Notes: a model not told the origin generated them from the letters alone. Positions 435 to 35,399 are shown, counted from the stretch's first letter. The stretch is DNA of 42,415 nucleotides from Candidatus Alcyoniella australis (GCA_030765605.1 JAVCCG010000061.1:1-42415), one strand, 5' to 3'. Numbers and translations are program-made.

Positions 435-719
435 TCAATCGGCGTCGTCGTCGTCGAAATCGGCGTCGCTGGCCGAATCCGCAGCGTCGCTATCGTCGTC
501 ATCGGAATCGTCGCTCTCGACTTCCGGCAGCGGCTCCTCGGTGAACCTGACTTCCCTGATGCGCGAGGCGAACAATCTCTCTTCGGGGCTCGGCGCTTCG
601 ACCTGGTCCGCGACGCACTTCGGGCAGACCTTGTCTGGTCGGCCCAGGTCGTAGAACTTGCAGCCACACTTGTAGCATTCGTGGCGCTCGCCGTACTCGG
701 GATGGACCGGGTGAATCAT
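435..719 (-). CDS. FYDLN_acid family (TIGR02300-like) zinc-ribbon protein with an acidic C-terminal tail
   Basis: CYKCGCKFYDLG...CPKC is two CxxC pairs flanking the FYDL(N/G) motif. The C-terminus ESDDSDDDDSDAADSASDADFDDDDAD is acidic. ATG at 719 has a GGAGG 5 nt upstream on the minus strand; the track ORF 435..767 extends the N-terminus without an RBS. Confidence 0.7.
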   Translation of the reverse strand: MIHPVHPEYGERHECYKCGCKFYDLGRPDKVCPKCVADQVEAPSPEERLFASRIREVRFTEEPLPEVESDDSDDDDSDAADSASDADFDDDDAD

Positions 720-802
720 GCTTTCCTCCAAGATTCCTCTCCTCATAGAGGAGCGGGAAACTACCAAAAAGCGGATCGGCTGTCTATAAGTTACTCAGCC
801 GG

Positions 803-4953: not shown

Positions 4954-6483
4954 TTATTCAACCAATGACAATAATTCTTCACGTGCTTGCGATTGATCGA
5001 TACGCCACAGCTCGATTGCCAGGCCCGCGTCCTGAAAAACCAGCCGCTGTTCAAAGCGCAGATCGCCCACTGGCAGTCGCTGCTGATACGCGCGAAAGGC
5101 CGCGTGGTCCGTGGTGTCAAAGGCCGAGCCGGGCCGCACCTCAATACGGATCACGCTCTTGGCCTCAATGCGGGACGCTGCCGCGGCCAGGGTCGTGTCG
5201 CCCTGGAAAAACGCGTCGTCAACAACAATCAATCCTGGATCCAGATCTTGACGCAGGGCGTAAATCCGCAACAGGTCGGGCGACAGCTCGCTGAACGTGC
5301 CCGCCGCCAGCACGGGCTGTGGCCCGTCGATCCAGCCCACGGCCTGCTGAGCCGCCACGCGCACGACCTGCCGCGGGCTGTCAAGCTGATGCTCGGCCAT
5401 CGCCTGGATATAGGTTGTGAAATGCCGCATTGGCGCAACAATCGAGAGCACCAGCAGCAGGGCTATCGTGCATTGCACAACGCGCGCCCTGGAAAGCGAG
5501 AACAGCGCAGCCCAGCCCATTGCGGCCAGGGCCGGAACCAGCATCAGGAACGGAAAGGCGAAACGCGGATGATGATAAGGGTGCAGCGTACAGGCGATCA
5601 GCCCCACTGCCGCAAAGATTGTTAATTGTCGCGCGCGTCTGTTCCACACGGCCCACACCGCGCCCACCAGCGCCAGCAGGCCGGGCACTATCGAGAACGT
5701 ATAGAACGAACGCCAGGCGCGGGCGTAGAACAGCAGTCCGCTGCCATCGGCCTCCGACGTGCGGTTGCGCAGAAACTGCGCCGCGCTGATCAGCTTTTCC
5801 GGGAACGGATAGGCGAACCAGACGATCGATGCCAGTACGCTTGGCAGCGCCAAAATCAACAGTCCGCGCAATCGACGCTGTCGCAATCGGCCGTCGCACA
5901 GCACGCACAACGCTGCGCTGCAAAGGGCGATCAGACCGTAGTTGTACTTGAGCATCAACAGCGCGGCACAGGCCAGGCCCGCGGCCCACAGGTGCGGCTC
6001 GCTTTGCCGATCATCAGCATCACCGCTGAGCAACAGCACGATCAGGCATGTCAGCGCCCACGACGGAACCTCGAGCATGGCCCGCAGGCTGTAATCCACG
6101 AAGTACGGGCTGCAACAGGCGATCACCACGGCCCAGGCCCCCAGGGCCGCGCTGTTCTTGATACCGCTACGCAGCACGATCATGTAGCTCAGCGCCAGTC
6201 CCAGAAGCGCCATGGCGAACGCGCAGAGCCGCGCGCCGCAAATCGGATCGGAGCTAAAAGCGCCGGGCAGCAACAGCAGCGTGGAGAGCGGCGGCCAGGT
6301 TTGATAATTCCAGACCACGTCCAGGGCGTGGCCGCATGCGCCGCGTTCGAGCGCATCGCCGATTTCCAACGCCCGATAGATCAGCGTGGCCTCGTCCCAG
6401 TCCGGCGCAGGCAACAGATCGAGCAGGGTCAGCGGCGCCAGAGCCGTGGGGATCAGCAGTAAGATAAGGGCTGCAAATCGCAA
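4954..6483 (-). CDS. Polytopic membrane protein, GT-C fold (ArnT/PMT-like glycosyltransferase family 39/83 candidate)
   Basis: About ten predicted TM helices. An early periplasmic loop carries the DE motif (PDWDEATLIYRA), as in ArnT/PMT enzymes. A C-terminal soluble domain follows. Confidence 0.45.
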   Translation of the reverse strand: MRFAALILLLIPTALAPLTLLDLLPAPDWDEATLIYRALEIGDALERGACGHALDVVWNYQTWPPLSTLLLLPGAFSSDPICGARLCAFAMALLGLALSYMIVLRSGIKNSAALGAWAVVIACCSPYFVDYSLRAMLEVPSWALTCLIVLLLSGDADDRQSEPHLWAAGLACAALLMLKYNYGLIALCSAALCVLCDGRLRQRRLRGLLILALPSVLASIVWFAYPFPEKLISAAQFLRNRTSEADGSGLLFYARAWRSFYTFSIVPGLLALVGAVWAVWNRRARQLTIFAAVGLIACTLHPYHHPRFAFPFLMLVPALAAMGWAALFSLSRARVVQCTIALLLVLSIVAPMRHFTTYIQAMAEHQLDSPRQVVRVAAQQAVGWIDGPQPVLAAGTFSELSPDLLRIYALRQDLDPGLIVVDDAFFQGDTTLAAAASRIEAKSVIRIEVRPGSAFDTTDHAAFRAYQQRLPVGDLRFEQRLVFQDAGLAIELWRIDQSQAREELLSLVE

Positions 6484-6657: not shown

Positions 6658-8172
6658 ATGTCCAAAGCGTTGCGCCTGTTAACGGTCCTGTTGTGCTTGC
6701 TGATCCCGCTGGCGTTGGTCGCCTGCGATCAGGGCGCCGATGACGACGACGACGACCAGACCGCGGATGACGACGACCTTGACGACGACGATTTGGACGA
6801 CGACGCGGACGACGACGACGATACGCAGGACCCCGACTGGGATTTCATTGTCGACGAACAGGGGCGCGCGCTGATCTTGCACGGCTGCAACTTCGACGGC
6901 GGGGCCAAGTGGAACGCGGGCCTGCCGCCCCAAGGGGTCGAGCAGACGCAGAGCCTGTTTGGCGATTGGGGCTTCAACTTCGCGCGCTACTTAATTTTCC
7001 GGGCCGAGATCGACCCCGAGCCCGGCGTCTACAACGAGGACTATCTGGGCCAGGTCGAGACGCGGCTGGACTGGCTGGAGCAGGCCGGCATCCGCGTGGT
7101 GCTCGACATGCACCAGGACGTCTGGGGACCGGAGTTCCACAGCGGCGGCTCCGACGGCGCGCCGCCCTGGGCCACGATCACCGACGGAGTGCCGCACATC
7201 CCCTTTGCCCAGCTCCTCGGCGCCTGGGCCCTGGACTACCTCTCGCCCGCGGTGATGCGCGCCTTTGACAACTTCTGGGACTACGAGCTGCACCCCGAGC
7301 TGCAGGACCTCTACGCCGCAATGTGGGTCCACGTGGTGCAGCGCTTCAAGGATCACCCCAGCGTACTGGGCTACGACCTGATCAACGAGCCGTGGGAAGG
7401 GACCGGGATCTACAACCAGGGGCGCTTTGACCGCACCAAGTATTTCGAGTTCAACCAGCGGATGATCGACGCGATCCGCAGCGCGGACCAGGAGGGCTGG
7501 ATCTTCTACGAGCCGCGCGCCTTTGGCCCCAACCAGGGACTGCCATCGCATTTGCCCGCACTGGACGATCCGCGTCCCGGCGCGCAACGCCTGGCCTACT
7601 TCCCGCACATGTACTCGATCCTGGTCGAGCTTGAAGGCGGCTACGACCCGCTGCGCGATCCGATCCTCGAGGACTGGCCGCGCAACCGCACGATCGAGAG
7701 CGAGCTGCAGCGTGCGCCGCTGCTGGCCGGCGAATGGTCGTTGCTCACCTGGCCCGACCTGGAAAACCGCCTGCTGTTCAACGATGCGGCCCTGCGGATG
7801 TTCGAAAGCGCGACCTCGGGCTGGGCCTATTGGGATTGCGGCTCGTTCGAGCGCTCGCCGCTTGAGCTGCAAGAGCTGATCGCCTCGCCCTTTCCTCGCG
7901 CCGTGGCCGGTTGGCCCCTGGAGTACGGCTACGACCAAAGCGCGCGCGAGCTGAGCTTGACCTTTGAGGCGCGCGACAATGTCGAGGGACCGACCGAGAT
8001 CTATCTGCCGCTAAGCCGCTGCTGCCCTGACGGCTACGCAATCGAGGTCAGCGGCGTGGCGGAAGATGGCTGGCACAGCGAGTTTAACGACGATTCCCAA
8101 CTGCTCAGCATCTGGATCGATGAGACTTTTACCGAGGCCACAATCAGTATTTTTGCCGCACAGCCGCAGTAG
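6658..8172 (+). CDS. Lipoprotein: glycoside hydrolase family 5 domain, with a poly-Asp linker after the lipobox
   Basis: MSKALRLLTVLLCLLIPLALVAC is a signal peptide plus lipobox. It is followed by DQGADDDDDDQTADDDDLDDDDLDDDADDDDD. GH5 blocks: VVLDMHQDVWGPEF and GYDLINEPWEG (the NEP acid/base motif). GGAGG sits 4 nt upstream of the ATG at 6658. The track ORF begins at 6484, but the upstream residues have no signal peptide or RBS. Confidence 0.7.
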   Translation: MSKALRLLTVLLCLLIPLALVACDQGADDDDDDQTADDDDLDDDDLDDDADDDDDTQDPDWDFIVDEQGRALILHGCNFDGGAKWNAGLPPQGVEQTQSLFGDWGFNFARYLIFRAEIDPEPGVYNEDYLGQVETRLDWLEQAGIRVVLDMHQDVWGPEFHSGGSDGAPPWATITDGVPHIPFAQLLGAWALDYLSPAVMRAFDNFWDYELHPELQDLYAAMWVHVVQRFKDHPSVLGYDLINEPWEGTGIYNQGRFDRTKYFEFNQRMIDAIRSADQEGWIFYEPRAFGPNQGLPSHLPALDDPRPGAQRLAYFPHMYSILVELEGGYDPLRDPILEDWPRNRTIESELQRAPLLAGEWSLLTWPDLENRLLFNDAALRMFESATSGWAYWDCGSFERSPLELQELIASPFPRAVAGWPLEYGYDQSARELSLTFEARDNVEGPTEIYLPLSRCCPDGYAIEVSGVAEDGWHSEFNDDSQLLSIWIDETFTEATISIFAAQPQ

Positions 8173-8335
8173 CCGCCAGCCCAGGGTTACAACAAGCCGG
8201 CTGGTGTTGCCCGCTGCCAGGGTGACAATCGATCGGCAAATCGGGCACACGGTTGAAGCTCGCTTGGGAAAATTGCCTTTTGATTGGCGCAGGCGTAGCC
8301 TCAGTTGTATACATATTTCATCAGAGGTGCACGCC

Positions 8336-10018
8336 GTGAGAAAACGCTTTTTCACGTTTACCGCCCTGGCCTTCTCAGTTATCTGTGTCATCGGCATCGT
8401 GGCGTTCTGCTCTTGCGGGACTGATGATGACGACGACGCGGACGACGATGACGACGATCTTGACGACGACGCGGACGACGATGACGACGACGGTTTCCCC
8501 TGCGTCTGGGACCAGGTACGAGCAGGACATTGGGTGCATGCGGTGAACTTGCCGTGGGACAACTATGGCACCGACTTCGGAGAAAGCGCCTGGGGCTATC
8601 GCGGATTGGCAAACCAGGGGCCTGCCGGATGGCGCTGCAAACACGACGACGACAGCCAAGGGTGTGCGAGTTTGGATTGGAACGACGGGAAGCTCGTGGT
8701 GAACTTGAGCTTGAATGCCTCAGATCAGCTCAGATCGAATGCAATAACTTACTATTGTTTTGAGGAATCGGCGGCTTTGCCCTCGGAGGGGACGATCGAC
8801 CTTCGCGGAAAAACAGTTGCCGCCCAGGCAAGCTTTCCTGCCGGAAGCCAGGGGCCCTCATCCGCTCCCAACGAAGTAGTCCTCTTTCTCCAGGACATCA
8901 ACTGGAATTGGGGACAGAGCGCGCCGCAGAACATCGTGCCGGGCGACATGACGTTGAGCGTCGTGCCCGACACCCTGCCGGATTTCGATGAGACGCAGGT
9001 CCGCTGCATCGGCATCAGCATGACTACCAACGACGAGGCGCCGGATGATTACACTTATGACGGCTCCTTCACCGTCGATTACGTGCAGTCGCCGCCCGAG
9101 ATAAACTTCCCCTACGACACCGCCCATACGCGCACAGAAGATGAACTGCTGGACATCGCGGGCCTCGGGGCCACGGCGACCCGCGTATGGCTTTTCGCCG
9201 ACGGCCGATCAGGACTGGCATTCGATCCGGCCAGCGGAGAGGTCAGCGGCCTTAATCAGTTTTTTAAAGATGATTTCGACGAACTGATACGTCTGGCTGA
9301 TTCAAGCCGGCTATATCTGATCGTCGTGCTGTTTGACTTCCTGATGGGCGGCTCGTCCCCGGTGGAGGAGCCGGGAATCTTCGGCCACGCGGACCTGATC
9401 ACCGACCCGGCCAAGCGCGATTCCCTGATCGGGAATGCGCTGATCCCGCTCTTTGAGGAGTACGGCGATCGGTGCGAAATATTGTCGTGGGAACTGATGA
9501 ATGAGCCCGAATGGCTGTTGATCAACGATCCCGACCACGTGACGATCCTCGCGGGAAAGAGGCCGTCCGAGATCGCCACCGGCGGCGCGGCCACCTTCGA
9601 CCAGATGACCGAGTTTTTCAACGCTGTTCTTGAGGCATACCAGACCGCCGTGCCCGGCGGGCAACAGCTTTTCACCGTGGGAAGCGCCAGCGAACAATGG
9701 GCCGATCAGTGGTACGAGGCGCTGAACATGGATCTCGGTCAATTCCATTTCTGGAACGGTCCCGCACAGATCGACGAAGGTCTGAGCTTCGATTTCACGC
9801 CGCCGATCGCCGGCGTGCCCAACATCATGGGCGAGTTCAGCTCAGAGGCCGATTGCTGCGAAATACTGGAATCCGCCCTTGAGCTGGATTACTCGGGAGC
9901 CTGGCCCTGGGCCTATCGATCCAAGGACGAATCGAGCTTCCGCATGCTGGGCGACGATTGCCGCGAGTGCATGCAGCAGTTTGCAGAGGAACATCCCGAA
10001 ACGGTTCGCTTCGAATAG
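8336..10018 (+). CDS. Lipoprotein: second glycoside hydrolase family 5 (mannanase-like) domain, with a poly-Asp linker
   Basis: GTG at 8336 is preceded by cAGAGG. The N-terminus (V)RKRFFTFTALAFSVICVIGIVAFCSCG is followed by TDDDDDADDDDDDLDDDADDDDDD. GH5 block: ILSWELMNEPEW. Confidence 0.6.
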   Translation: MRKRFFTFTALAFSVICVIGIVAFCSCGTDDDDDADDDDDDLDDDADDDDDDGFPCVWDQVRAGHWVHAVNLPWDNYGTDFGESAWGYRGLANQGPAGWRCKHDDDSQGCASLDWNDGKLVVNLSLNASDQLRSNAITYYCFEESAALPSEGTIDLRGKTVAAQASFPAGSQGPSSAPNEVVLFLQDINWNWGQSAPQNIVPGDMTLSVVPDTLPDFDETQVRCIGISMTTNDEAPDDYTYDGSFTVDYVQSPPEINFPYDTAHTRTEDELLDIAGLGATATRVWLFADGRSGLAFDPASGEVSGLNQFFKDDFDELIRLADSSRLYLIVVLFDFLMGGSSPVEEPGIFGHADLITDPAKRDSLIGNALIPLFEEYGDRCEILSWELMNEPEWLLINDPDHVTILAGKRPSEIATGGAATFDQMTEFFNAVLEAYQTAVPGGQQLFTVGSASEQWADQWYEALNMDLGQFHFWNGPAQIDEGLSFDFTPPIAGVPNIMGEFSSEADCCEILESALELDYSGAWPWAYRSKDESSFRMLGDDCRECMQQFAEEHPETVRFE

Positions 10019-10927: not shown

Positions 10928-11632
10928 TCAGCCGCCGAGGATTTGCGGGTTGAACGCCAGCACCACGCTGTTGCACAGCCCGTGGTAGAGGCCCGCGCCG
11001 AATACGCTGCCCGTGCGCTTGCGCATCCAGGCGAAGGCCAGTCCGGGCACAAAGGTGGCGACCGTGGCCGGGTTGAACGTGATCGCCAAATGCGCCAGGG
11101 CGAACAGCGCGGCGCTGAGCCAGACGTCCGGCCCGATCCGAACCCCGAGCAGCGTCGGCCCGCGATGGCCCCAACGCCGGGTCAGCGGGCTCTGAATCCA
11201 GCCGCGAAAAAAAATCTCCTCGGGCACGCCGATCACCAGGATCATCAGCGTCACACCTCGCACGTAACTCCAATCGAGACGCGCGGTCACGTGGTGATCC
11301 ATGATCAACCCGAACCAGACCACGTAGAGCACAACGAACAGCGGCAGCGTGGCCAGGGCGAACAGCAGCGAGACTTTCAGATCGTCGCGCCAACGATCGA
11401 GGCGCAGGCCGAAATCCTCCGGCCGTTGGCGGCAGAGGCGTATCAGCAGCAGCGGCAGATAGATCAGCAGCACGACCTTGCCCACCGCCGCCAAATCCGC
11501 GGTGATGCCCGGCAGGCGACGTGCCGCGTTGAGCGCTAAGAAGGCCACAATCAGCGCCGCCAGGCTGGCCAGTAGTTGCCGAATGGACGGCCGTAACGCG
11601 GCCTGTTGTTCGATGGAATGCTGTCGGGACAT
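10928..11632 (-). CDS. CPBP-family (CAAX protease-like) intramembrane metalloprotease
   Basis: EEIFFRG motif 1, FALAHL motif 2 and a HGLCN-like third motif. Multi-pass membrane protein. Confidence 0.75.
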   Translation of the reverse strand: MSRQHSIEQQAALRPSIRQLLASLAALIVAFLALNAARRLPGITADLAAVGKVVLLIYLPLLLIRLCRQRPEDFGLRLDRWRDDLKVSLLFALATLPLFVVLYVVWFGLIMDHHVTARLDWSYVRGVTLMILVIGVPEEIFFRGWIQSPLTRRWGHRGPTLLGVRIGPDVWLSAALFALAHLAITFNPATVATFVPGLAFAWMRKRTGSVFGAGLYHGLCNSVVLAFNPQILGG

Positions 11633-14501: not shown

Positions 14502-14861
14502 ATGCCGATATACGAATACGAATGCCAACAATGCGGAAAGCTCAGCGAGCACTGGCAGAAGACCACTGACGGCCCGCCGGAAAATTGCCCCCATTGCCAG
14601 GGTGGACCTTTGCGTAAAATAGTCAGTCTCTCGACCTTCCATCTCAAGGGAACCGGCTGGTACGTGACCGACTACGCCCGGAAAAACGGTGATGCCAAGA
14701 ACGACGCGCCTTCGCCCAAGCCAAACGGCGAGCAGTCCTCGAGCGCGGCATCATCGTCCGATGAGAGCAAACCGGCCGAGTCCAAATCCGAGAGCAAGTC
14801 CGAGAGCAAGGCTGAGACCAAAGCCGAGTCCAAGCCCAACACGTCGACCACGGACGCTTAA
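14502..14861 (+). CDS. FmdB-family zinc-ribbon protein with a low-complexity Ser/Lys/Glu-rich tail
   Basis: MPIYEYECQQCG...CPHCQG is the canonical FmdB/CxxC_CxxC_SSSS N-terminus. The tail is ESKPAESKSESKSESKAETKAESKP. Confidence 0.75.
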   Translation: MPIYEYECQQCGKLSEHWQKTTDGPPENCPHCQGGPLRKIVSLSTFHLKGTGWYVTDYARKNGDAKNDAPSPKPNGEQSSSAASSSDESKPAESKSESKSESKAETKAESKPNTSTTDA

Positions 14862-19941: not shown

Positions 19942-22900
19942 CTAGCCGCAACAACCTGAGTCGTCGTCATCGTCGCCGTCCGAGGCGTCGTCGTCGTCAT
20001 CGTCGCCGGGTAAATCCGATACCGCGTTGGAGATGCGGCTTAAGTTCCCCTCATCGTCAGCGACACGCAGTGCCACGTGCAGCACGCCGGGGTCGGGCAC
20101 GATAAAGCTCTCGATTGATCCCGGCGGCTGAGGCGCTGCTCCGAACTCAAAGGCCTCTGCCGCGGCAAACTGTTCGACCTGCTCCAGATCGGCCGCGGGA
20201 TCGCGCGAGATGCGCACGTCATAGGACTGTGCCTGACCGCAGGTCCAATCATCTCCCGGCGCGGTGAAGGTCAGCTTGAGCCGCCTATCGCCGAGCCGTT
20301 CGAGCTGCAAGTCGGTGACGCGCGCGGGCGGCAGCGCGTCCAGGCCGTAGTATCCGCTGTTGTGCGGATCGTGGTGAAAGCGCGGCCAGTCGGCGTTCTG
20401 CTCGCCGTCAATGCAGGACGCGGCCCCGGTCTCCCAGGCGTAGAGCCAGCCCTCGTAGGTCGGCAGCAGCACCTCGAGCAGGCCATCGGCGTCGATGTCC
20501 GCGATCGCAGCGCTGCCCGTGATCCATTTCTGCGTGTACTTGGGCCAGCCCGGCGGCTGGATGCCGTCCACCGAGAACGCGTGCGCCAGGTAGCCGCTGG
20601 TCCCCAGCACCAGCTCGCGCGTGCCGTCCGCGTTGAGGTCGGCCGCGGCCGGGCTGTTGAACATCGGAAGGTCCTCCAGCTCCTCGATCAGCAGCCGCTC
20701 GTGGGGCGGGTCAACGTCGTTGGCCGCCAGCTTGGAGTTGATCAGGTTGAACCCCTCCTCGCCGATCTGCAGCACGGACAGCAGCGGGATCGAGTATTGC
20801 AGCCAGCCGTCGTTGTACAGCGAGGTGAACGCGCCGTGGGCGATGGAGGTCAGGCTGAGGCCGGTGGGCATGTACATCTCGTGGATCTTTTCGCCCGAGT
20901 AGTGCATCACCGCCGGGAACCAGCCCGGCGTGCCCAGGCCGATCCAGGCCTCGCCGTTGCCCAAGGCGATCACCGGCGAGGAGACGCCGCCCGCTGCGAA
21001 CGGCAGCGGGATCGCATCGCCCAGGGGCGCTGCGGGCGCGGCCGGCCAGTCGGGCAGAAACGTTCCCGCGGGATTGGCCCAGCCGTCGTGGTAGATCGCG
21101 TAGGCGCGGGTGGTGGCCAGCAGCCCCTCCTCGCAAATCTCGGTGGTCGCCACCACCACGGACGGATATTCGGACACGTCCGGATTCGCGTTCAGCGGAT
21201 CGAGCACACCCGCCGCCGGCGTGCTGCAAATCTGAGACGGCAGGCCGCTCCCCTCGCAGATCCGCTCGTCGCGCACGATCCCCTCGTCGCTGCGGCAGAG
21301 CACGGGCCAGCCGTAGAGCGGGTCGACCTGGCCGTTACCGTCCTGGTCCAGCGGCTTCCAAGCGTAGGCCTTCTGGTCGTTGGACGCGACCACGATCTCG
21401 AGCACGCCGTCGAGGTCGAGGTCAACGAGCACCGGCGAGCCGTAGACGCCGTTACCATGGCCAAAGGCGAGCGAGCTGGAGTTGTCCGGCGCATCGGTCT
21501 GCACCGGAAACCCGGGCAGGATCGGCGAGGGCTGGTGCAGGTTGCCGTCAGCGTGAATTGCAAACACCCGGCCCAGGGCCGTGGCGGCCACGATCTCGGG
21601 CTCGCCGTCGCCGAACAGATCGCCGATGGCCACCGAGCCGATGATCCCGTCGCTGCGCCATTGGTCGTAGCTCGAGAGGTCCACGGGGAAGCCCGCAAGC
21701 TCGGACCAGCCGGAGCCGTCAACGTCGCGGGTCAGAACGTGGACCAGGCCGTCGCCCGTGCCCATCACGATCTCGGGCAGGCCGTCGGCCGCGCCGTCGA
21801 GGTCGTAGACAATGGGCGAGAACCCGGGGGAGGCGCCGAAGTAGTACGGGAAGCCGGCGGCCAGGCCGTTCACCGGATCGTCGTCCACGTGGACCGAGAT
21901 CGACTTGCGCGCCTCGCCGCGCACCTGTTCGTCGATCCCGGCCTCGTACCACGCGCGCACGCGCAGCGAGACCTCGAAATCGTAGCGCGACTGGGGCACT
22001 CCGCGCATCTGGTCGGGCGGAAAGAGTTGGGCGATGGGCACCTGGGCAATCAGGCCCTCGATCCGCTCGTCGGACGTGCCCTGGAACACGGTCTGGTACT
22101 CATTGTCCAGCGGCTGCTTGCCGCGGGCCAGCTGCACCTCGTAGGAGAACGGATAGACCCGGGCGTCGATCTCGCCCTCGAGCTCGAAGGTCGCGCTCGC
22201 CGCGGTATCGAAGGTCTCCCACCAGCGCGGATAGGTGATGCGCACCTCGGGCGGAATGCGCGGCTCGATCCCGCGTTGCTCGTCGCCGAGCATCAGCAGC
22301 GCACGCTCGAGGTCCGGCCGGCCGTAGCCGAAGTGCTCGTCCCAGCCGGGCTGGCAGACGTTGAGCAGCGAGGCCACGGATGCGCAGTGGCTCTCGATAT
22401 CGTCCGCCGACTGGATCAGCAGCTGGAACAGCTCACCCGCGCTGAGCTCGATCCCCTGCTCCAACGCGTAGCTCTTGATCAGGGCCATGGCGCCGGTGGT
22501 GGTGCCCGTAGCGTCGGAGGTGCAGGCGGTGTCGGCGGGCACTGCCACGTGGGCGTGGGTGCCGAAGTTGGTGCAATAGGTCTCGACAAAGCCGAACGAT
22601 CCGAGGTTGAAGATCCCCACCAGGTCCACCGGGATGATCGGGAACAGCGCAGTGACCGCCACCACGTCCTCCATCGCGGCCGGAGCCCAATGGTGCATGC
22701 TCATCTCGTCGCCCTGGGGTGCGGCGATCAGCACCCCGGCGTCGTAGGCCTCCATCACCGCCCGATGCGCTTGGTCCGAATAGTTCAGGGCCACGCCGGA
22801 ATGGTTGATCACGTCCGCGCCCATCGACACCGCGTAACGCACGCCCGCGGCGAACAGGTCGTAGTTGTAGATCACCGCGTCGCCAACCCGCACCTGCATC

Positions 22901-23910
22901 ACGCGGCAGTCGGGGCAGACTCCGGGCCGATTGCCGATGCCGTTGTTGCCGCGCGCCGCGGCCAGCTCGCACATCCCGTGGCCGTGGGCCCCCTCGGGGA
23001 AGTCGTCGACCCCGAGCACCTCGTTGGTGTTGCGGAAGAAGTCCCAGCCGCTGATGTCGTCGACCAAGCCGTTTTTATCGTCGTCAACGCCGTCGGAGAA
23101 CTCGGCCAGTAGATCGCCGACGTTGATCGCGCGGTCCAGCGGCTCCACGCGCGGATCGTCGGCATAGTCGTCCACGTCAAAGCGGCCGTCGCCGTTGCAG
23201 TCGTAGTCCGCGCAGACGCCCGACGCGGTCTGCGGCAGGGGCAGCTCGCCGGAGTTGATGAACAGCGCGATGCGCAGGTCCTCGTCCTCGTAATGCTTAA
23301 GTCCGTCGTCGACCACCGCCACCAGCACATCGGGGCTGCCGGTGCTGTACTTCCAGGCGCCGGTGACGTTGATCCCCGGAATCATCCACGGCCCCTCGAC
23401 AGCAGACTCGGGCTCGATCGGGTTGAAGCCCATCAGCACGCTGGTCTCGGTGAACATTGCGAACGGATCGCCCGGATCGTAGATCGGGATCTCGAAGTCG
23501 TTGGGGATGTTGCACACGAACAATGCGCCGAAGGGGTACGCGCCGTCGAATGGATCGCCGGACGCGGAGTGCAGAGCGTTGCCCACGTGCAGCTCGATCC
23601 GCTCGCCCCAGGGCCAGGCCGCACTCGGCGTGAAGACCACTGTGTCGTTGGCGTGCACAATGCTGCTTAGTACCAGCGAGCCGGCCAGGTGCGCATCATC
23701 GCCACCCAGCGCAACGAAGAACGTCGAATCGCCCAGCGTGGCCCCTTCCAGGGAGTCGGAGAAGCGTACTGACAGCGGCGTGTCGCCCTGAACCAGCTTG
23801 CTCTGGAAGGTCGGAAACTGATCGACAATCGACAGCGCCGCGGCGCCCGAGGCGGCCAGCGCGATCGAACACAGCGCGACGAAAAGAACGGCAATCGTAC
23901 GTGACGTCAT
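19942..23910 (-). CDS. Large secreted protein (1322 aa): S8 subtilase-like peptidase domain plus FG-GAP/integrin-alpha-like beta-propeller repeats. Acidic C-terminal tail ending SGCCG.
   Basis: Signal peptide MTSRTIAVLFVALCSIALAASGAAA from the ATG at 23910. Subtilase D/H/S blocks: VAVVDDGL, HGHGMCELAAARGNNGIGNRPGVCP, ACTSDATGTTTGAMALIKS (aligns to GTSMASPHVAG). Repeated D-x-D/N-x-DG-x-x-E motifs (DLDLDGVLEIVV, DLNADGTRELVL, DIDADGLLEVLL) are FG-GAP-like. The C-terminus is DLPGDDDDDDASDGDDDDDSGCCG. Confidence 0.7.
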   Translation of the reverse strand: MTSRTIAVLFVALCSIALAASGAAALSIVDQFPTFQSKLVQGDTPLSVRFSDSLEGATLGDSTFFVALGGDDAHLAGSLVLSSIVHANDTVVFTPSAAWPWGERIELHVGNALHSASGDPFDGAYPFGALFVCNIPNDFEIPIYDPGDPFAMFTETSVLMGFNPIEPESAVEGPWMIPGINVTGAWKYSTGSPDVLVAVVDDGLKHYEDEDLRIALFINSGELPLPQTASGVCADYDCNGDGRFDVDDYADDPRVEPLDRAINVGDLLAEFSDGVDDDKNGLVDDISGWDFFRNTNEVLGVDDFPEGAHGHGMCELAAARGNNGIGNRPGVCPDCRVMQVRVGDAVIYNYDLFAAGVRYAVSMGADVINHSGVALNYSDQAHRAVMEAYDAGVLIAAPQGDEMSMHHWAPAAMEDVVAVTALFPIIPVDLVGIFNLGSFGFVETYCTNFGTHAHVAVPADTACTSDATGTTTGAMALIKSYALEQGIELSAGELFQLLIQSADDIESHCASVASLLNVCQPGWDEHFGYGRPDLERALLMLGDEQRGIEPRIPPEVRITYPRWWETFDTAASATFELEGEIDARVYPFSYEVQLARGKQPLDNEYQTVFQGTSDERIEGLIAQVPIAQLFPPDQMRGVPQSRYDFEVSLRVRAWYEAGIDEQVRGEARKSISVHVDDDPVNGLAAGFPYYFGASPGFSPIVYDLDGAADGLPEIVMGTGDGLVHVLTRDVDGSGWSELAGFPVDLSSYDQWRSDGIIGSVAIGDLFGDGEPEIVAATALGRVFAIHADGNLHQPSPILPGFPVQTDAPDNSSSLAFGHGNGVYGSPVLVDLDLDGVLEIVVASNDQKAYAWKPLDQDGNGQVDPLYGWPVLCRSDEGIVRDERICEGSGLPSQICSTPAAGVLDPLNANPDVSEYPSVVVATTEICEEGLLATTRAYAIYHDGWANPAGTFLPDWPAAPAAPLGDAIPLPFAAGGVSSPVIALGNGEAWIGLGTPGWFPAVMHYSGEKIHEMYMPTGLSLTSIAHGAFTSLYNDGWLQYSIPLLSVLQIGEEGFNLINSKLAANDVDPPHERLLIEELEDLPMFNSPAAADLNADGTRELVLGTSGYLAHAFSVDGIQPPGWPKYTQKWITGSAAIADIDADGLLEVLLPTYEGWLYAWETGAASCIDGEQNADWPRFHHDPHNSGYYGLDALPPARVTDLQLERLGDRRLKLTFTAPGDDWTCGQAQSYDVRISRDPAADLEQVEQFAAAEAFEFGAAPQPPGSIESFIVPDPGVLHVALRVADDEGNLSRISNAVSDLPGDDDDDDASDGDDDDDSGCCG

Positions 23911-33494: not shown

Positions 33495-35399
33495 ATGTTG
33501 GCGTTTCGCGAAAAGCACCTGTGGCTGCTGCTGCTGGCGGCGTTGTCGTTATTGGCCCTGGTCGCGGCCGGCTGTTCGGTCGGCGACGACGACGACGACG
33601 ATGACGACGATGACGACGATGATTTCGAGCTTGACGGCAATATCGTCGCGCCGCAGATCGACCCCACGGACTGCCTGACCGACGACGCCAAAGAGGCGGT
33701 CGAACTGGCGCCGGCCTGGCTGCGCACCGAGATGATCCTCAACCTGTGCGCTTTAGCGGACGATAAGCAGGACCTGGCCGCCGAGCTGGTGCTGGGCTAT
33801 ACCGACCCCAAATACATCGACGAGCTGGCGTTTTTAGCGGCCCACGTGGGCAAGACCGACTGGAACTACCCTTCCCTGGACATCGACCTGTTCTACGACA
33901 ACGTCGTGTCGGTCTACGCCGCGGACGAGCAGCTGGACTACGTGACCCTGATCGACGAGGGCGATCCGCTGACCGACGACGACTTCTTCACCACGGCCGA
34001 ATACAGTTCCTTTGACAGCTCGGGCAAGGCCCAGACCGTGCGCGTGGATCCCTATTACTACTACTGGTTCGTGGTCCATCCGCGGCTGGAGGACGAGGGC
34101 CCGCGCTACATCGACCCCGAAACCGGCGGCAGCGCCGATCCGCCCGACGGCGTGTTCTGGCGCGACTACCTGCTCAACCACTCCGACGATCTGTGCCCGG
34201 GCACAATCGACAATCAGACCGATTTCGAGGATCCGGAAAAGACTACCTGGGTGAGCTGCTCGGTGCTCGCCGATCTGCTCGCGGGCGTGGACACGGTCTG
34301 GGAGGGAACTGACGAAACAATCGACAATGGTGCCATTGGCTTAATCAGCTACTGGATCGACGAGGCGATGTGGTTCTTCAGCTATACTCGCCGGCCGGTG
34401 CAGCCCGTGGCGATCTACTCGGGCCATGTGGGGCGTTGCGGCGAGCACGCCGACCTGACCTCCGCCGCCACGCGCGCGGCGCTGATCCCCGCGGCCAACA
34501 TCGCCTCCTATGCCAACGACCACACCTGGAACGAGTTCTACGACTTCCTCTGGGTGCAGTACGAGCCGGTCAACGACATGGTTAACGCACCCAACGCCTA
34601 CGACACCTGGGGCAACGGCACCAAGGGCGCGTACCGCACGCGCGGCGACGGCTTCGCCGAGAACGCCACGTCGCTGTACACCACAACCGGCACCCTCGAG
34701 ATCACCGTGGTCGACTCCGCAGGCAACCCGGTGGACGAAGCGGTGGTGATCGCCAGCGGCAAATATGGCGGAAGGCAGATGGACCACACCATGAGCGTCA
34801 CCGACCAGAGCGGCTTCACCAGCTTCGAGGTCGGCGACGAGAACTACGTCTACCTCGAGGTCCGCTCGCCGCTGGCCAATTTCCCCGCCGAGCAGGTGAT
34901 CAAGAAGCGCATCAATGCCGGCCAAACCTATGAGGGCCAAATCGAGCTTGATGCCGAGCTTAAGACCCTGGACATCGCGCAGCCCGAGGACTACCAGGGC
35001 GCGGGCGTGGTCACGCTCGAGGTCGGCCTGATCGACGCGGTGCGTTACGTGCGCAACCAGGGGATCGTCGGCACCAATATCTTCACTCAGTCCTACGACG
35101 ACGTGCTGCTGCCGCTGTACATGGTCGACGCGCAGAACTACGCCCTCTACCAGGACGGCGAGCAGTTCGTTGCCCACGCCCTGACCTTTGATGCCAACGG
35201 CGAGGCGCAGTTCGACCTGCCCCACGGCGGCGACTGGATGCTGTTCGTGAGCAACTACTCGGGCGTGAGCAACTACATCACCGGCGCGTTGGCAGTGCAG
35301 ATCGTCAACGCCGCCACCGACGAGGTATTCGACTCGGCGCAGGTCGAGCTGTTCCTCGAGCCGGGCGATCTGGCGCTGTTTGAATTAAACGGATTGTAG
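33495..35399 (+). CDS. Lipoprotein: transglutaminase-like cysteine-protease core domain, with a 13-Asp linker after the lipobox
   Basis: The N-terminus MLAFREKHLWLLLLAALSLLALVAAGCSVG is followed by DDDDDDDDDDDDD. Transglutaminase-like core: GRCGEHADLTSAATRAALIPAANIASYANDHTWNEFY (a Cys...His...Asp/Asn arrangement). C-terminal Ig-like / CarboxypepD_reg-like beta domain (TGTLEITVVDSAGNPVDEAVV). Confidence 0.6.
   Translation: MLAFREKHLWLLLLAALSLLALVAAGCSVGDDDDDDDDDDDDDFELDGNIVAPQIDPTDCLTDDAKEAVELAPAWLRTEMILNLCALADDKQDLAAELVLGYTDPKYIDELAFLAAHVGKTDWNYPSLDIDLFYDNVVSVYAADEQLDYVTLIDEGDPLTDDDFFTTAEYSSFDSSGKAQTVRVDPYYYYWFVVHPRLEDEGPRYIDPETGGSADPPDGVFWRDYLLNHSDDLCPGTIDNQTDFEDPEKTTWVSCSVLADLLAGVDTVWEGTDETIDNGAIGLISYWIDEAMWFFSYTRRPVQPVAIYSGHVGRCGEHADLTSAATRAALIPAANIASYANDHTWNEFYDFLWVQYEPVNDMVNAPNAYDTWGNGTKGAYRTRGDGFAENATSLYTTTGTLEITVVDSAGNPVDEAVVIASGKYGGRQMDHTMSVTDQSGFTSFEVGDENYVYLEVRSPLANFPAEQVIKKRINAGQTYEGQIELDAELKTLDIAQPEDYQGAGVVTLEVGLIDAVRYVRNQGIVGTNIFTQSYDDVLLPLYMVDAQNYALYQDGEQFVAHALTFDANGEAQFDLPHGGDWMLFVSNYSGVSNYITGALAVQIVNAATDEVFDSAQVELFLEPGDLALFELNGL

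What the first reader, a model, noticed from the sequence alone, without database searches (positions are those of the whole stretch)
6658..10018. Tandem GH5 lipoproteins carrying poly-Asp runs immediately after the lipobox cysteine
The two adjacent GH5 proteins begin ...LALVAC-DQGA-DDDDDD... and ...VAFCSCG-T-DDDDDADDDDDDLDDDADDDDDD. A third lipoprotein at 33495 has 13 consecutive Asp after AAGC-SVG. In E. coli a single Asp at +2 causes inner-membrane retention. In Bacteroidetes a short acidic patch right after the lipidated Cys acts as a lipoprotein export signal for surface exposure. Here the acidic stretch is extreme (5-13 Asp, 30-45 aa D-rich linkers). It is attached to polysaccharide-degrading and transglutaminase-like domains that would be expected to act outside the cell. 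This looks like a lineage-specific sorting or tethering device. Plausible roles are surface export, a Ca2+/Mg2+-binding spacer, or S-layer/LPS anchoring.
Basis: partly seen in the sequence, partly recalled or inferred. Interest (0 to 1): 0.7.

Follow-up and report, generated by a model that had tools for sequence, protein, structure and literature searches.

The report
Poly-aspartate tethers on bacterial lipoproteins
Three secreted enzymes of an uncultured Antarctic-lake bacterium are joined to their lipid anchor by floppy, highly negatively charged strings of aspartate, a design used by most lipoproteins sampled from this lineage and not described in the literature I could search.

Summary
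Genes 6658-8172, 8336-10018 and 33495-35399 each encode a lipoprotein-type signal peptide, a Cys, then an Asp-rich stretch of 16-37 residues. Eight Asp runs of 5 or more occur in the window against 0.013 expected. The window comes from a Candidatus Alcyoniella australis MAG (phylum Lernaellota).

In 11 related loci, 32 of 42 lipobox proteins carry such a stretch, against 1 of 122 other proteins (p=4e-24). In other phyla the figure is 1 of 35. The linkers are 63% Asp, almost free of Lys/Arg, predicted disordered and hypervariable. They grow by tandem duplication, including a perfect 33-bp repeat in gene 2.

The best reading is an anchor-proximal polyanionic disordered tether. A surface-export signal is possible but unproven. 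A metagenome scan found short C-G-D6 patches widely, including on ABC substrate-binding lipoproteins, so only the extreme form is lineage-typical.

One related feature turned up. Non-lipobox secreted proteins of the same lineage end in poly-Asp followed by GCGC or GCCG and the stop codon. In Myxococcota orthologs that position holds a full MYXO-CTERM tag. A myxosortase-family protease gene lies at 10928-11632.

I rate this a new variant of a known kind.

The parts
6658..8172 (+). Gene 1: a GH5 (endoglycoceramidase-like) lipoprotein of 504 aa, with a GH5 catalytic domain and a GH5 C-terminal domain.
   Evidence: Pfam PF00150 at 82 bits and PF18564 at 46 bits. NCBIfam EndGlycCerase E=9e-37, below its cutoff. 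It is 100% identical to an NCBI protein of a Ca. Alcyoniella australis MAG.
6658..6726 (+). Gene 1 lipoprotein signal peptide, ending in lipobox L-V-A-C (Cys codon 6724-6726).
   Evidence: Read from the sequence. Orthologs keep a lipobox at the same place.
6727..6837 (+). Gene 1 poly-Asp tether, 37 aa with 26 Asp. It ends just before the conserved DWxF start of the GH5 domain.
   Evidence: A 15-bp tandem array of 3.9 copies lies at 6765-6819. The codons are 20 GAC and 5 GAT.
8336..10018 (+). Gene 2: a GH5 beta-mannanase-like lipoprotein of 560 aa counted from GTG 8336, with an inserted beta-sandwich (galactose-binding-like) module.
   Evidence: PDB phmmer hits 4oou, 3vup and 2c0h at E 1e-8 to 1e-10. 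The AF2 model has pLDDT 85. Foldseek places GH5 mannanases first at E about 1e-15. N389-E390-P391 are invariant and E500 is nearly invariant. Homologs hit Pfam Mann_GBD_bact and Cellulase.
8336..8416 (+). Gene 2 signal peptide with a non-canonical lipobox F-C-S-C (Cys codon 8414-8416). The NCBI annotation starts 38 codons upstream and so hides it.
   Evidence: P0121 is 598 aa; homolog N-termini match the short start. AGAGGTG lies 8 nt upstream of the GTG.
8417..8491 (+). Gene 2 poly-Asp tether, 25 aa with 20 Asp, containing a perfect 33-bp tandem duplication.
   Evidence: TRF finds period 33 at 8428-8490, 1.9 copies, 100% match. pLDDT is below 50 for residues 26-50.
33495..35399 (+). Gene 3: a lipoprotein of 634 aa with a transglutaminase-core domain and Ig-like domains.
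   Evidence: Pfam Transglut_core at 29.8 bits against a cutoff of 23. Homolog survey.
33576..33623 (+). Gene 3 tether, S-V-G followed by 13 consecutive Asp, lying after lipobox A-A-G-C (Cys codon 33573-33575).
   Evidence: A 9-bp unit GACGACGAT is repeated 4.2 times. The closest homologs P0150 and P0175 also have poly-D, and P0151 has G8 at the same place.
19942..23910 (-). Subtilase (S8) / FG-GAP protein with an ordinary (non-lipobox) signal peptide and a C-terminal poly-Asp tail.
   Evidence: Pfam Peptidase_S8, FG-GAP_3 and Big_5. N-terminus. The NCBI protein P0300 is 1322 aa.
19945..20004 (-). C-terminal tail DDDDDDASDGDDDDDSGCCG followed by the stop codon. It is the mirror image of the N-terminal design and looks like a truncated MYXO-CTERM signature.
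   Evidence: About 30 close homologs end in poly-D plus GCGC or GCCG. Myxococcota homologs end in GCGC plus a TM helix plus RRRR, and two of those tails pass TIGR03901.
10928..11632 (-). Myxosortase-family CPBP (Rce1-like) glutamic intramembrane protease, 0.9 kb downstream of gene 2.
   Evidence: NCBIfam MrtP E=3e-38, MrtX 1e-34, MrtC 1e-32, and Mrt_core 98.8 bits against a cutoff of 100. The motifs EEIFFR, FALAH and HGLCN are intact.

Best explanation
The three proteins are Sec-exported, signal-peptidase-II-type lipoproteins. In each, the Cys that is expected to be lipidated is joined to the folded enzyme domain by an intrinsically disordered, polyanionic tether made almost entirely of aspartate.

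This is a lineage-wide design of Lernaellota-type bacteria, not a property of the enzyme families. The tether grows and shrinks by tandem duplication of GAC/GAT-rich units. Its sequence and length drift fast, while three things are conserved: its position (starting 1-4 residues after the Cys), its composition (about 63% Asp, almost no Lys/Arg, little Glu) and its disorder. Selection therefore appears to act on bulk physical properties.

Inferred function: the tether keeps the catalytic domain on a long, charge-extended leash that cannot stick to the anionic membrane. It may also supply the long disordered N-terminal segment that outer-membrane lipoproteins need for trafficking in E. coli.

The same poly-Asp module sits immediately upstream of a C-terminal GCGC/GCCG motif in non-lipobox secreted proteins. 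In orthologs from other lineages that position holds a MYXO-CTERM anchor. Poly-Asp is therefore specifically Cys-anchor-proximal at either end of a protein, which ties it to membrane anchoring or display rather than to generic domain linking.

Shown here: the anatomy, the statistics, the predicted disorder, the duplication mechanism and the lineage distribution. Inferred: lipidation, cellular location and the physical role.
For: Anatomy and non-randomness.

Source organism.

Lineage rather than family trait, shown in three unrelated families:
- The closest GH5 homologs all have a lipobox followed by a variable poly-D stretch, whereas homologs below about 50% identity have short non-acidic linkers.
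- Among gene 2 homologs only the Alcyoniella copy has poly-D.
- Among gene 3 homologs only the closest ones have it, and one has poly-Gly in its place.

Survey: 32/42 lipobox proteins against 0/41 and 1/81 non-lipobox proteins in 11 loci (Fisher p=4e-24). Without the GH5 genes that brought each locus in, p=3e-17. In other phyla the figure is 1/35 (p=9e-12).

Linker statistics.

Tandem duplications.

Disorder: pLDDT below 50 over the linker in an otherwise confident model.

The lineage's lipobox proteins that lack poly-D include an NMT1-type substrate-binding protein, a MlaD-like protein, a TPR protein and an alpha/beta hydrolase. This matches the E. coli pattern in which inner-membrane lipoproteins lack long linkers (bioRxiv 10.1101/2021.01.05.425367, read).

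C-terminal counterpart.
Against: - No experimental localisation or lipidation data exist for any of these proteins.
- The loci were sampled around GH5 or subtilase genes, so the 76% figure is not a whole-genome estimate. The rest of the Alcyoniella genome could not be retrieved.
- The Ca. Lernaella stagnicola ortholog of gene 2 is a lipoprotein without poly-D, so the tether is dispensable for that enzyme.
- Poly-D also occurs occasionally inside proteins: L037 15021-17633 at residue 393, and near the end of L002 15564-16724 without any Cys.
- A pure spacer role does not explain why Asp is so strongly preferred over Glu, Ser or Gly.
Confidence: 0.55

Rival explanations
1. The poly-Asp stretch is a sorting signal. 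It would be recognised, like the Bacteroidota lipoprotein export signal (LES), by a machinery that flips or exports lipid-anchored proteins to the cell surface. The same signal would then serve both N-terminal lipoproteins and proteins anchored through the C-terminal GCGC motif.
For: - The start of the linker is positionally stereotyped: C-G-D-D-D-D in 17/32 linkers, with the first Asp at +2 to +5 in 29/32.
- The carriers are mainly enzymes for polymeric substrates: GH5, GH31, GH92, pectin acetylesterase and PI-PLC.
- Gene 2 orthologs elsewhere carry T9SS sorting domains or dockerins, so the family works outside the cell.
- Lipobox proteins expected to face the periplasm or the inner membrane (a substrate-binding protein, MlaD-like, TPR) lack poly-D.
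- Poly-D also precedes the truncated MYXO-CTERM motif, and MYXO-CTERM is an experimentally shown cell-surface tag (PMC11980579).
- The LES depends on position and net negative charge (PMC5080379).
Against: - Short C-G-D6-9 patches occur on ABC substrate-binding lipoproteins that act at the cytoplasmic membrane, many with Tat-type signals on high-GC contigs. The motif is therefore not a general surface signal.
- A signal needs only a few residues, not 25-80.
- The Lernaella ortholog of gene 2 lacks it.
- GH31 and GH92 are exo-acting enzymes that are periplasmic in many systems (my own knowledge).
- No export machinery has been identified.
Confidence: 0.2
2. The linkers are a neutral by-product. 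GAC/GAT triplet arrays expand by replication slippage and are simply tolerated in linkers that only need to be disordered. On this view poly-Asp has no role beyond that of any flexible linker.
For: - Perfect and near-perfect tandem duplications occur in all three linkers.
- Length and sequence are hypervariable among orthologs.
- Other lineages put Gly-, Ser-, Thr- or Pro-rich linkers, or poly-Gly, at the same place.
Against: - Slippage alone does not explain why the arrays sit almost only next to Cys anchor points (32/42 against 1/122).
- It does not explain why they are always in the Asp reading frame.
- It does not explain why Lys/Arg are excluded (0.5%).
- The trait persists in low-GC relatives, where the codons and the interspersed residues (Asn) differ.
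Confidence: 0.1
3. The poly-Asp stretch is a divalent-cation or mineral-binding module. It would bridge via Ca2+/Mg2+ to LPS or an S-layer, or bind carbonate or sulfide mineral surfaces, and so hold the enzymes at the cell surface or on particles.
For: - The composition resembles Asp-rich Ca-binding and biomineralisation proteins. Only such papers came up for the Asp-rich search terms.
- Asp is preferred over Glu 30-fold.
- The C-terminal version couples poly-Asp to thiol-rich ends such as GCGC and CCGNCENSSCCGCC.
Against: - There is no direct evidence.
- Relatives come from very different habitats, a saline Antarctic lake and a freshwater fen MAG among them.
- This reading is compatible with the tether explanation, not exclusive of it.
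Confidence: 0.1
4. The acidic stretch is a Lol-avoidance signal, an exaggerated E. coli '+2 Asp' rule. It would retain the enzymes in the inner membrane, facing the periplasm.
For: - Gene 1 has Asp at +2 (C-D-Q), as do 6 of 32 linkers.
- A Lol-like cluster (LolA-like TP_0789 family, two MacB/FtsX permeases and an ABC ATPase) exists on a contig of the poly-D lineage (L034 1576-5575).
- Short Asp patches occur on substrate-binding proteins that stay at the cytoplasmic membrane.
Against: - The +2 residue is Gly in 17/32 linkers, and genes 2 and 3 have Gly and Ser there.
- The +2 rule is specific to enterobacteria (my own knowledge).
- In E. coli the inner-membrane lipoproteins are the ones that lack long disordered linkers.
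- The lineage's own substrate-binding and MlaD-like lipoproteins lack poly-D.
Confidence: 0.05

Closest known systems
Intrinsically disordered N-terminal linkers of E. coli outer-membrane lipoproteins (El Rayes et al., bioRxiv 10.1101/2021.01.05.425367)
   Same: Both are disordered segments longer than about 22 residues lying between the lipidated Cys (plus sorting positions) and the globular domain. In E. coli length and disorder matter and sequence does not, and inner-membrane lipoproteins mostly lack such linkers. Here the linkers are likewise disordered, variable in sequence, and absent from a substrate-binding and a MlaD-like lipoprotein.
   Different: The E. coli linkers have mixed composition. 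Here the linker is a near-homopolymer of Asp (63% Asp, net charge about -25 to -50), is produced by tandem duplication, and is used by about three quarters of the sampled lipobox proteins.
Bacteroidota lipoprotein export signal, LES (Lauber et al. 2016, PMC5080379)
   Same: Both are a negatively charged patch directly after the lipidated Cys of glycan-degrading lipoproteins. For the LES, position and net charge are critical.
   Different: The LES is 3-4 residues, K-(D/E)2 or Q-A-(D/E)2, in a different phylum, and its function has been shown experimentally. Here there are 16-80 residues, almost only Asp, mostly with Gly at +2, and no functional data. Short Asp patches also occur on non-surface substrate-binding proteins.
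MYXO-CTERM / myxosortase sorting system (Haft 2023, bioRxiv 10.1101/2023.06.07.544157; PMC11980579). This comparison concerns the C-terminal poly-D tails.
   Same: The same GCGC-type Cys signature sits at the same position of orthologous subtilase/FG-GAP proteins. A myxosortase-family CPBP protease gene is present in the window. An intrinsically disordered region precedes the tag in M. xanthus as well.
   Different: The tails here stop 0-2 residues after the Cys motif. No transmembrane helix and no Arg cluster follow in any reading frame, there is no TIGR03901 hit, and a poly-Asp stretch precedes the motif.
Tether peptides of Borrelia surface lipoproteins (my own knowledge, not checked here)
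   Same: Both are disordered N-terminal tethers of lipoproteins that influence surface display.
   Different: The Borrelia tethers are short and of mixed sequence, and acidic substitutions there can cause retention. They are not homopolymeric.

Membership tests
Bacterial lipoprotein (signal peptidase II substrate; PROSITE PS51257-type rule) | A positively charged n-region, an uncharged hydrophobic h-region, and a lipobox with Cys at about position 15-35 | tested here: met
   Gene 1 has K3/R6 and L-V-A-C23. Gene 3 has R5/K7 and A-A-G-C27. Gene 2 has R2/K3/R4 and F-C-S-C27, which is non-canonical at -3/-2 but within the permissive pattern. The rule is quoted from my own knowledge.
Bacterial lipoprotein (signal peptidase II substrate; PROSITE PS51257-type rule) | Diacylglyceryl modification by Lgt and cleavage by LspA | not testable with these tools
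   Requires mass spectrometry or globomycin sensitivity.
Glycoside hydrolase family 5 | A match to the GH5 profile above its curated threshold | tested here: met
   Gene 1: PF00150 at 82.2 bits (cutoff 23.5) and PF18564 at 45.6 bits.
Glycoside hydrolase family 5 | Gene 2: a profile match, the (beta/alpha)8 fold, and the two catalytic Glu residues (NEP acid/base and the nucleophile) | tested here: inconclusive
   There is no Pfam or NCBIfam hit. PDB GH5_10-type mannanases match at E about 1e-9 by sequence and about 1e-15 by fold. N389-E390-P391 are invariant and E500 is nearly invariant. Homologs P0142 and P0146 hit PF00150. The fold and motifs are met and the profile is not.
Bacteroidota lipoprotein export signal (LES) | K-(D/E)2 or Q-A-(D/E)2 at +2 to +5 of a Bacteroidota lipoprotein | tested here: not met
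   The organism belongs to Lernaellota. The +2 to +5 residues are D-Q-G-A, G-T-D-D and S-V-G-D. The consensus is taken from PMC5080379.
Bacteroidota lipoprotein export signal (LES) | The signal is sufficient to expose a periplasmic lipoprotein on the cell surface | not testable with these tools
   Requires a reporter fusion and surface labelling.
E. coli Lol-avoidance signal | Asp at +2, with a suitable +3 residue | tested here: not met
   Only gene 1 has Asp at +2. Across the lineage, +2 is Gly in 17/32 linkers and Asp in 6/32.
Disordered N-terminal linker of outer-membrane lipoproteins | A disordered segment longer than 22 residues between the Cys and the globular domain | tested here: met
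   Gene 1 has 37 aa. Gene 2 has 25 aa with pLDDT below 50. The median across 32 linkers is 43 aa. Gene 3 has only 16 Asp-rich residues and is borderline.
MYXO-CTERM sorting tag (TIGR03901), tested for the subtilase tail | A signature motif with an invariant Cys (generic GCGC) | tested here: met
   The tail ends ...SGCCG-stop. About 30 homologs end in GCGC or GCCG.
MYXO-CTERM sorting tag (TIGR03901), tested for the subtilase tail | A transmembrane helix and an Arg-rich cluster after the Cys motif, and an HMM match | tested here: not met
   The stop codon follows directly, and no TM helix or Arg cluster lies downstream in any frame. There is no TIGR03901 hit, whereas Myxococcota homolog tails score 25.4 and 22.7 bits against a cutoff of 20.
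Myxosortase (CPBP family), tested for window 10928-11632 | A match to the Mrt_core model, and the EExxxR, FxxxH and HxxxN motifs | tested here: inconclusive
   Mrt_core scores 98.8 bits against a cutoff of 100. MrtP, MrtX and MrtC give E 1e-33 to 1e-38 but fall below their cutoffs. All three motifs are present.

The most novel reading that the evidence does not exclude
In Lernaellota-type bacteria, poly-aspartate next to a modified cysteine is a shared display determinant for two classes of surface-anchored proteins. One class is the N-terminal lipoproteins (lipobox Cys followed by poly-Asp). The other is a previously undescribed C-terminal tag, poly-Asp followed by GCGC or GCCG at the very end of the protein, with no transmembrane helix. 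That tag would have evolved from MYXO-CTERM and would be handled, in a CaaX-like manner, by a myxosortase-family (Rce1-like) protease and an unknown lipid transferase.
Probability: 0.15. Interest if true: 0.85.

Novelty: new variant of a known kind. Interest (0 to 1): 0.6.

Why it matters
How lipoproteins reach and are held at the cell surface is understood for only a few model phyla. In E. coli it involves Lol together with disordered linkers, in Bacteroidota the LES, and in Borrelia tether peptides.

Here an uncultivated phylum uses one simple and extreme solution, a homopolymeric Asp tether, on most of its sampled lipoproteins. It appears to use the same module beside a truncated MYXO-CTERM cysteine motif at the other end of other secreted proteins.

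This offers three things:
1. A clean sequence marker for predicting the anchored exo-enzyme repertoire of these polymer degraders directly from MAGs.
2. A natural experiment on whether charge or disorder drives lipoprotein trafficking.
3. A candidate new C-terminal anchoring tag, testable with the E. coli co-expression assay already established for myxosortase.

There is also a practical point. Annotation pipelines mis-place start codons, as for gene 2, and mask low-complexity sequence, so these signal peptides and tethers are easily missed.

Tried and rejected
Retrieval of the source genome:
1. Exact-protein look-ups for gene 1 and for two Alcyoniella subtilase paralogs are not on record.
2. 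The genome-contig scan did not return the source MAG. A whole-genome lipoprotein census was therefore impossible, and I used 11 related loci instead.

Exclusions from the counts:
3. L005 was excluded, because its very high GC made my simple gene caller pick wrong frames. Only its one clear ORF is mentioned.

Explanations considered and rejected:
4. Halophilic 'acidic proteome' adaptation. Background Asp is an ordinary 6.4%, the runs are confined to linkers, and relatives include a freshwater-fen MAG.
5. A tandem gene duplication carrying the linker along. Genes 1 and 2 are not detectably similar.
6. The acidic tail of the small ORF at 441-737(-) as a counter-example. It belongs to the FYDLN_acid family, whose acidic tail is a family trait.
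7. A frameshifted or read-through transmembrane segment after the C-terminal Cys motifs. None is present in any frame in 8 cases.

Searches that found nothing:
8. Four literature searches for poly-Asp, Asp-rich or acidic-linker lipoproteins found nothing relevant.
9. The paper describing the organism does not mention lipoproteins or acidic linkers.
10. NCBIfam has no model matching either the N-terminal or the C-terminal poly-Asp module.

Full report
**1. The observation**

The window encodes three proteins with a lipoprotein-type signal peptide whose Cys is followed at once by an aspartate homopolymer-like stretch.

- Gene 1 (ATG 6658 to 8172) reads MSKALRLLTVLLCLLIPLALVAC|DQGADDDDDDQTADDDDLDDDDLDDDADDDDDTQDPD.
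- Gene 2 (GTG 8336 to 10018) reads (M)RKRFFTFTALAFSVICVIGIVAFCSC|GTDDDDDADDDDDDLDDDADDDDDD.
- Gene 3 (33495 to 35399) reads ...LLALVAAGC|SVG followed by 13 Asp.

In the 31 window proteins (13,095 residues) the background Asp frequency is 6.4%. That predicts 0.013 runs of five or more Asp. Eight are present, all in these three N-termini and in one C-terminal tail.

**2. What the proteins are**

- Gene 1 is a bona fide GH5 enzyme with the GH5 C-terminal domain and is endoglycoceramidase-like.
- Gene 2 has no Pfam or NCBIfam hit, so calling it GH5 needed checking.
  - It matches solved GH5 beta-mannanases by sequence: 4oou, 3vup, 5y6t and 2c0h at E 1e-8 to 1e-10.
  - A confident AlphaFold model (pLDDT 85.4, pTM 0.83) has the same enzymes as its best structural matches at E about 1e-15.
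  - The NEP acid/base motif (N389-E390-P391) and the GEF nucleophile (E500) are conserved.
  - A beta-sandwich of about 150 residues is inserted, and in homologs it is recognised as Mann_GBD_bact.
- Genes 1 and 2 are not duplicates of each other (BLASTP E=0.09).
- Gene 3 has a transglutaminase core and Ig-like domains.
- The NCBI annotation starts gene 2 38 codons too far upstream (P0121 is 598 aa). Homolog N-termini and an AGAGGTG box support GTG 8336 as the start.

**3. Source organism and literature**

Gene 1 is 100% identical to a protein of a Candidatus Alcyoniella australis MAG, on a contig of 42,415 bp. The organism belongs to the phylum Candidatus Lernaellota. The paper that describes it does not mention lipoproteins or acidic linkers.

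**4. A trait of the lineage, not of the enzyme family**

- For GH5, every close homolog (about 48-61% identity; one is from Ca. Lernaella stagnicola and several are MAGs labelled 'Deltaproteobacteria') has a lipobox followed by a poly-Asp stretch of different length and sequence. More distant homologs keep a signal peptide or lipobox but have short, non-acidic linkers.
- For gene 2, only the Alcyoniella copy has poly-Asp. The Lernaella ortholog is a lipoprotein without it. Homologs elsewhere carry Gly/Ser linkers, T9SS sorting domains, a dockerin or fn3 domains. That marks the family as extracellular.
- For gene 3, a search of 1.84 billion representative proteins showed poly-Asp only in the closest homologs (P0150, P0175). 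P0151 has eight Gly at the same place.

**5. Association with the lipobox**

I assembled 11 loci of the poly-Asp lineage: the window, L002, L003, L009, L032 and L034-L039, 164 proteins in all. The threshold was at least 10 Asp in the 40 residues after the Cys.

| Protein class | Meeting the threshold |
|---|---|
| Lipobox proteins, poly-Asp lineage | 32 of 42 |
| Other signal-peptide or TM-like N-termini, same loci | 0 of 41 |
| Remaining proteins, same loci | 1 of 81 |
| Lipobox proteins, 22 loci from other phyla | 1 of 35 |

- Lipobox against non-lipobox within the lineage gives Fisher p=4e-24.
- Without the GH5 genes that brought each locus in, p=3e-17.
- Lineage against other phyla gives p=9e-12.

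Carriers include GH5, GH31, GH92, pectin acetylesterase, PI-PLC, PHP, He_PIG and DUF4382 proteins. Non-carriers include an NMT1-type substrate-binding protein, a MlaD-like protein, a TPR protein, an alpha/beta hydrolase and a Big_5 protein. The sample is biased toward neighbourhoods of GH5 and subtilase genes and is not a genome census.

**6. Anatomy and evolution of the linker**

Across 32 linkers:
- The median length is 43 residues and the maximum is 80.
- The composition is 63% Asp, 8% Asn, 2% Glu and 0.5% Lys+Arg.
- The +2 residue is Gly in 17 linkers.
- The first Asp is at +3 in 17 linkers and at +2 in 6.

At the DNA level the linkers are young tandem arrays:
- a perfect 33-bp duplication in gene 2 (8428-8490);
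- a 15-bp unit repeated 3.9 times in gene 1;
- a 9-bp unit repeated 4.2 times in gene 3.

The gene 2 linker is the only long segment of that protein with pLDDT below 50. Position, composition and disorder are conserved, while sequence and length are not.

**7. How widespread the motif is**

- Of 124 matches, 63 lie directly after a lipoprotein-type signal peptide. Only 8 lie in other long ORFs, and the rest are not in substantial ORFs.
- 46 of the 63 have just a short D6-9 patch followed by a Gly/Ser/Thr/Ala linker.
- Most of the matches I tabulated individually (48 lipobox-context matches) are on contigs of 64-77% GC, and several have twin-arginine signals.
- All six I tested are ABC substrate-binding proteins: OpuAC, SBP_bac_5, Peripla_BP_4, Peripla_BP_6, PBP_like_2 and Bmp.
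- A few low-GC gut contigs look like a Bacteroidota LES.
- Nine of the 63 are of the extreme type.

A short Asp patch after the lipidated Cys is thus a common design in several phyla. It occurs on proteins that work at the cytoplasmic membrane, so it cannot be read in general as an outer-surface export signal. What is peculiar to the Lernaellota type is that the whole tether is poly-Asp and that most sampled lipoproteins have it.

**8. A mirror image at the C-terminus**

The window's subtilase/FG-GAP protein (19942-23910, minus strand) has an ordinary signal peptide and ends ...GDDDDDDASDGDDDDDSGCCG-stop.

- Other non-lipobox secreted proteins in the lineage end the same way:
  - PKD/BNR protein: ...DDDDNGACGC
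  - beta-helix protein: ...DDDNDDDAGCGC
  - choice-of-anchor J proteins: ...CCGNCENSSCCGCC and ...CGCCL
  - a second protein in L038: ...DDDDKGCCGL
  - the Lernaella subtilase: ...DTGCGC
- In 1.39 Mb of held DNA there are 10 such tails, all on contigs of the poly-Asp type.
- No transmembrane or Arg-rich segment follows in any reading frame.
- Among 120 subtilase homologs:
  - Myxococcota members end in a canonical MYXO-CTERM tag (GGCGC, then a TM helix, then RRRR). Two such tails pass TIGR03901.
  - Six homologs of 49-56% identity have GCGCS followed by a TM helix and no poly-Asp.
  - About 30 Lernaellota-type homologs have poly-Asp followed by GCGC or GCCG and the stop.
- The generic MYXO-CTERM signature is GCGC. 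Its Cys is proposed to be lipidated before cleavage by myxosortase, and the tag directs proteins to the cell surface.
- The window encodes a myxosortase-family CPBP protease at 10928-11632. Its EExxxR, FxxxH and HxxxN motifs are intact, and its Mrt_core score is 98.8 bits against a cutoff of 100.

The tails fail the MYXO-CTERM membership test, because they have no TM helix, no Arg cluster and no HMM hit. They are nevertheless positionally homologous to it.

**9. Interpretation**

Poly-Asp in this lineage is found almost only next to a Cys anchor point, at either end of secreted proteins.

The best-supported reading is an anchor-proximal, polyanionic, disordered tether selected for bulk properties. 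It parallels the long disordered linkers that E. coli outer-membrane lipoproteins need and that its inner-membrane lipoproteins lack.

Whether it additionally acts as a surface-export signal, as the Bacteroidota LES does, is open.
- In favour: the stereotyped C-G-D start, the enzyme classes that carry it, the extracellular modules of orthologs, and the link to MYXO-CTERM.
- Against: the same short patch on substrate-binding proteins elsewhere, the excessive length, and the Lernaella ortholog that lacks it.

Neutral repeat expansion, cation or mineral binding, and inner-membrane retention are less likely but not excluded.

**10. Novelty**

Four literature searches found no description of poly-Asp lipoprotein tethers. 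A survey of low-complexity domains notes that D-rich classes are enriched in many archaea but not in bacteria.

I classify the finding as a new variant of a known kind: a disordered lipoprotein tether, or an acidic post-Cys patch. The C-terminal poly-Asp-GCGC tail is a possibly new sorting tag that deserves its own study.

Noticed in passing
window 19945-20004 (-); also L035 4192-5946, L036 18854-21400, L037 11550-12308, L038 13613-17659 and 17625-19358, L039 11540-12334, L040 10001-14077, L121: Secreted proteins with an ordinary (non-lipobox) signal peptide end in poly-Asp followed by GCGC, GCCG or CGCC and the stop codon, with no TM helix. In orthologous subtilases of Myxococcota the same position holds a full MYXO-CTERM tag. 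This may be a truncated, CaaX-like C-terminal anchoring tag.
   Followed up: partly
window 10928-11632 (-): A CPBP (Rce1-like) intramembrane protease of the myxosortase family lies 0.9 kb from the GH5 pair. Its motifs are intact, and Mrt_core scores 98.8 bits against a cutoff of 100. Its substrates in this genome are unknown.
   Followed up: partly
window 8222-8335 (+): The public annotation of gene 2 (598 aa) starts 38 codons upstream of the likely GTG start. This hides the signal peptide, and the protein is labelled 'hypothetical'.
   Followed up: yes
window 8336-10018 (+), residues about 95-260: Gene 2 belongs to a GH5 mannanase-like family that no Pfam or NCBIfam model detects. A galactose-binding-like beta-sandwich is inserted after the first barrel strand. 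Homologs carry T9SS tails, a dockerin or fn3 domains.
   Followed up: partly
L041-L160 (metagenome contigs): A short C-G-D6-9 patch directly after the lipobox Cys is common on ABC substrate-binding lipoproteins of high-GC contigs, several of which have twin-arginine signal peptides. It is followed by Gly/Ser/Thr/Ala linkers.
   Followed up: partly
L034 1576-5575: A Lol-like cluster on a contig of the poly-Asp lineage: a LolA-like TP_0789-family protein, two MacB_PCD/FtsX permeases and an ABC ATPase.
   Followed up: no
L039 4680-6755: A fusion of an ABC-2 permease and a CPBP protease lies 3 kb upstream of the GH5 ortholog.
   Followed up: no
window 441-737 (-): A small zinc-ribbon protein of the FYDLN_acid family with an Asp/Ser-rich tail. 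This is a family trait unrelated to the lipoprotein linkers.
   Followed up: yes
window 35466-38345 (+): A 959-aa protein combines PD40 (WD40-like) repeats with a weak Omp85-type barrel match, immediately downstream of gene 3. It may be an outer-membrane partner.
   Followed up: no
window 4954-6483 (-) and 18216-19868 (+): Two multi-pass membrane proteins. The first has weak PMT/GT39-like matches and sits directly upstream of gene 1 on the opposite strand. Whether the secreted proteins are glycosylated is unknown.
   Followed up: no
window 14775-14834 (+): A 12-bp tandem repeat (GCCGAGACCAAA, 4.9 copies) lies upstream of gcvH, in a weakly coding ORF.
   Followed up: no
L005 529-1005 (-): A small secreted protein consists almost only of an ordinary signal peptide, about 25 copies of a DDDAT-like unit, and a GGCNCSK end.
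   Followed up: no
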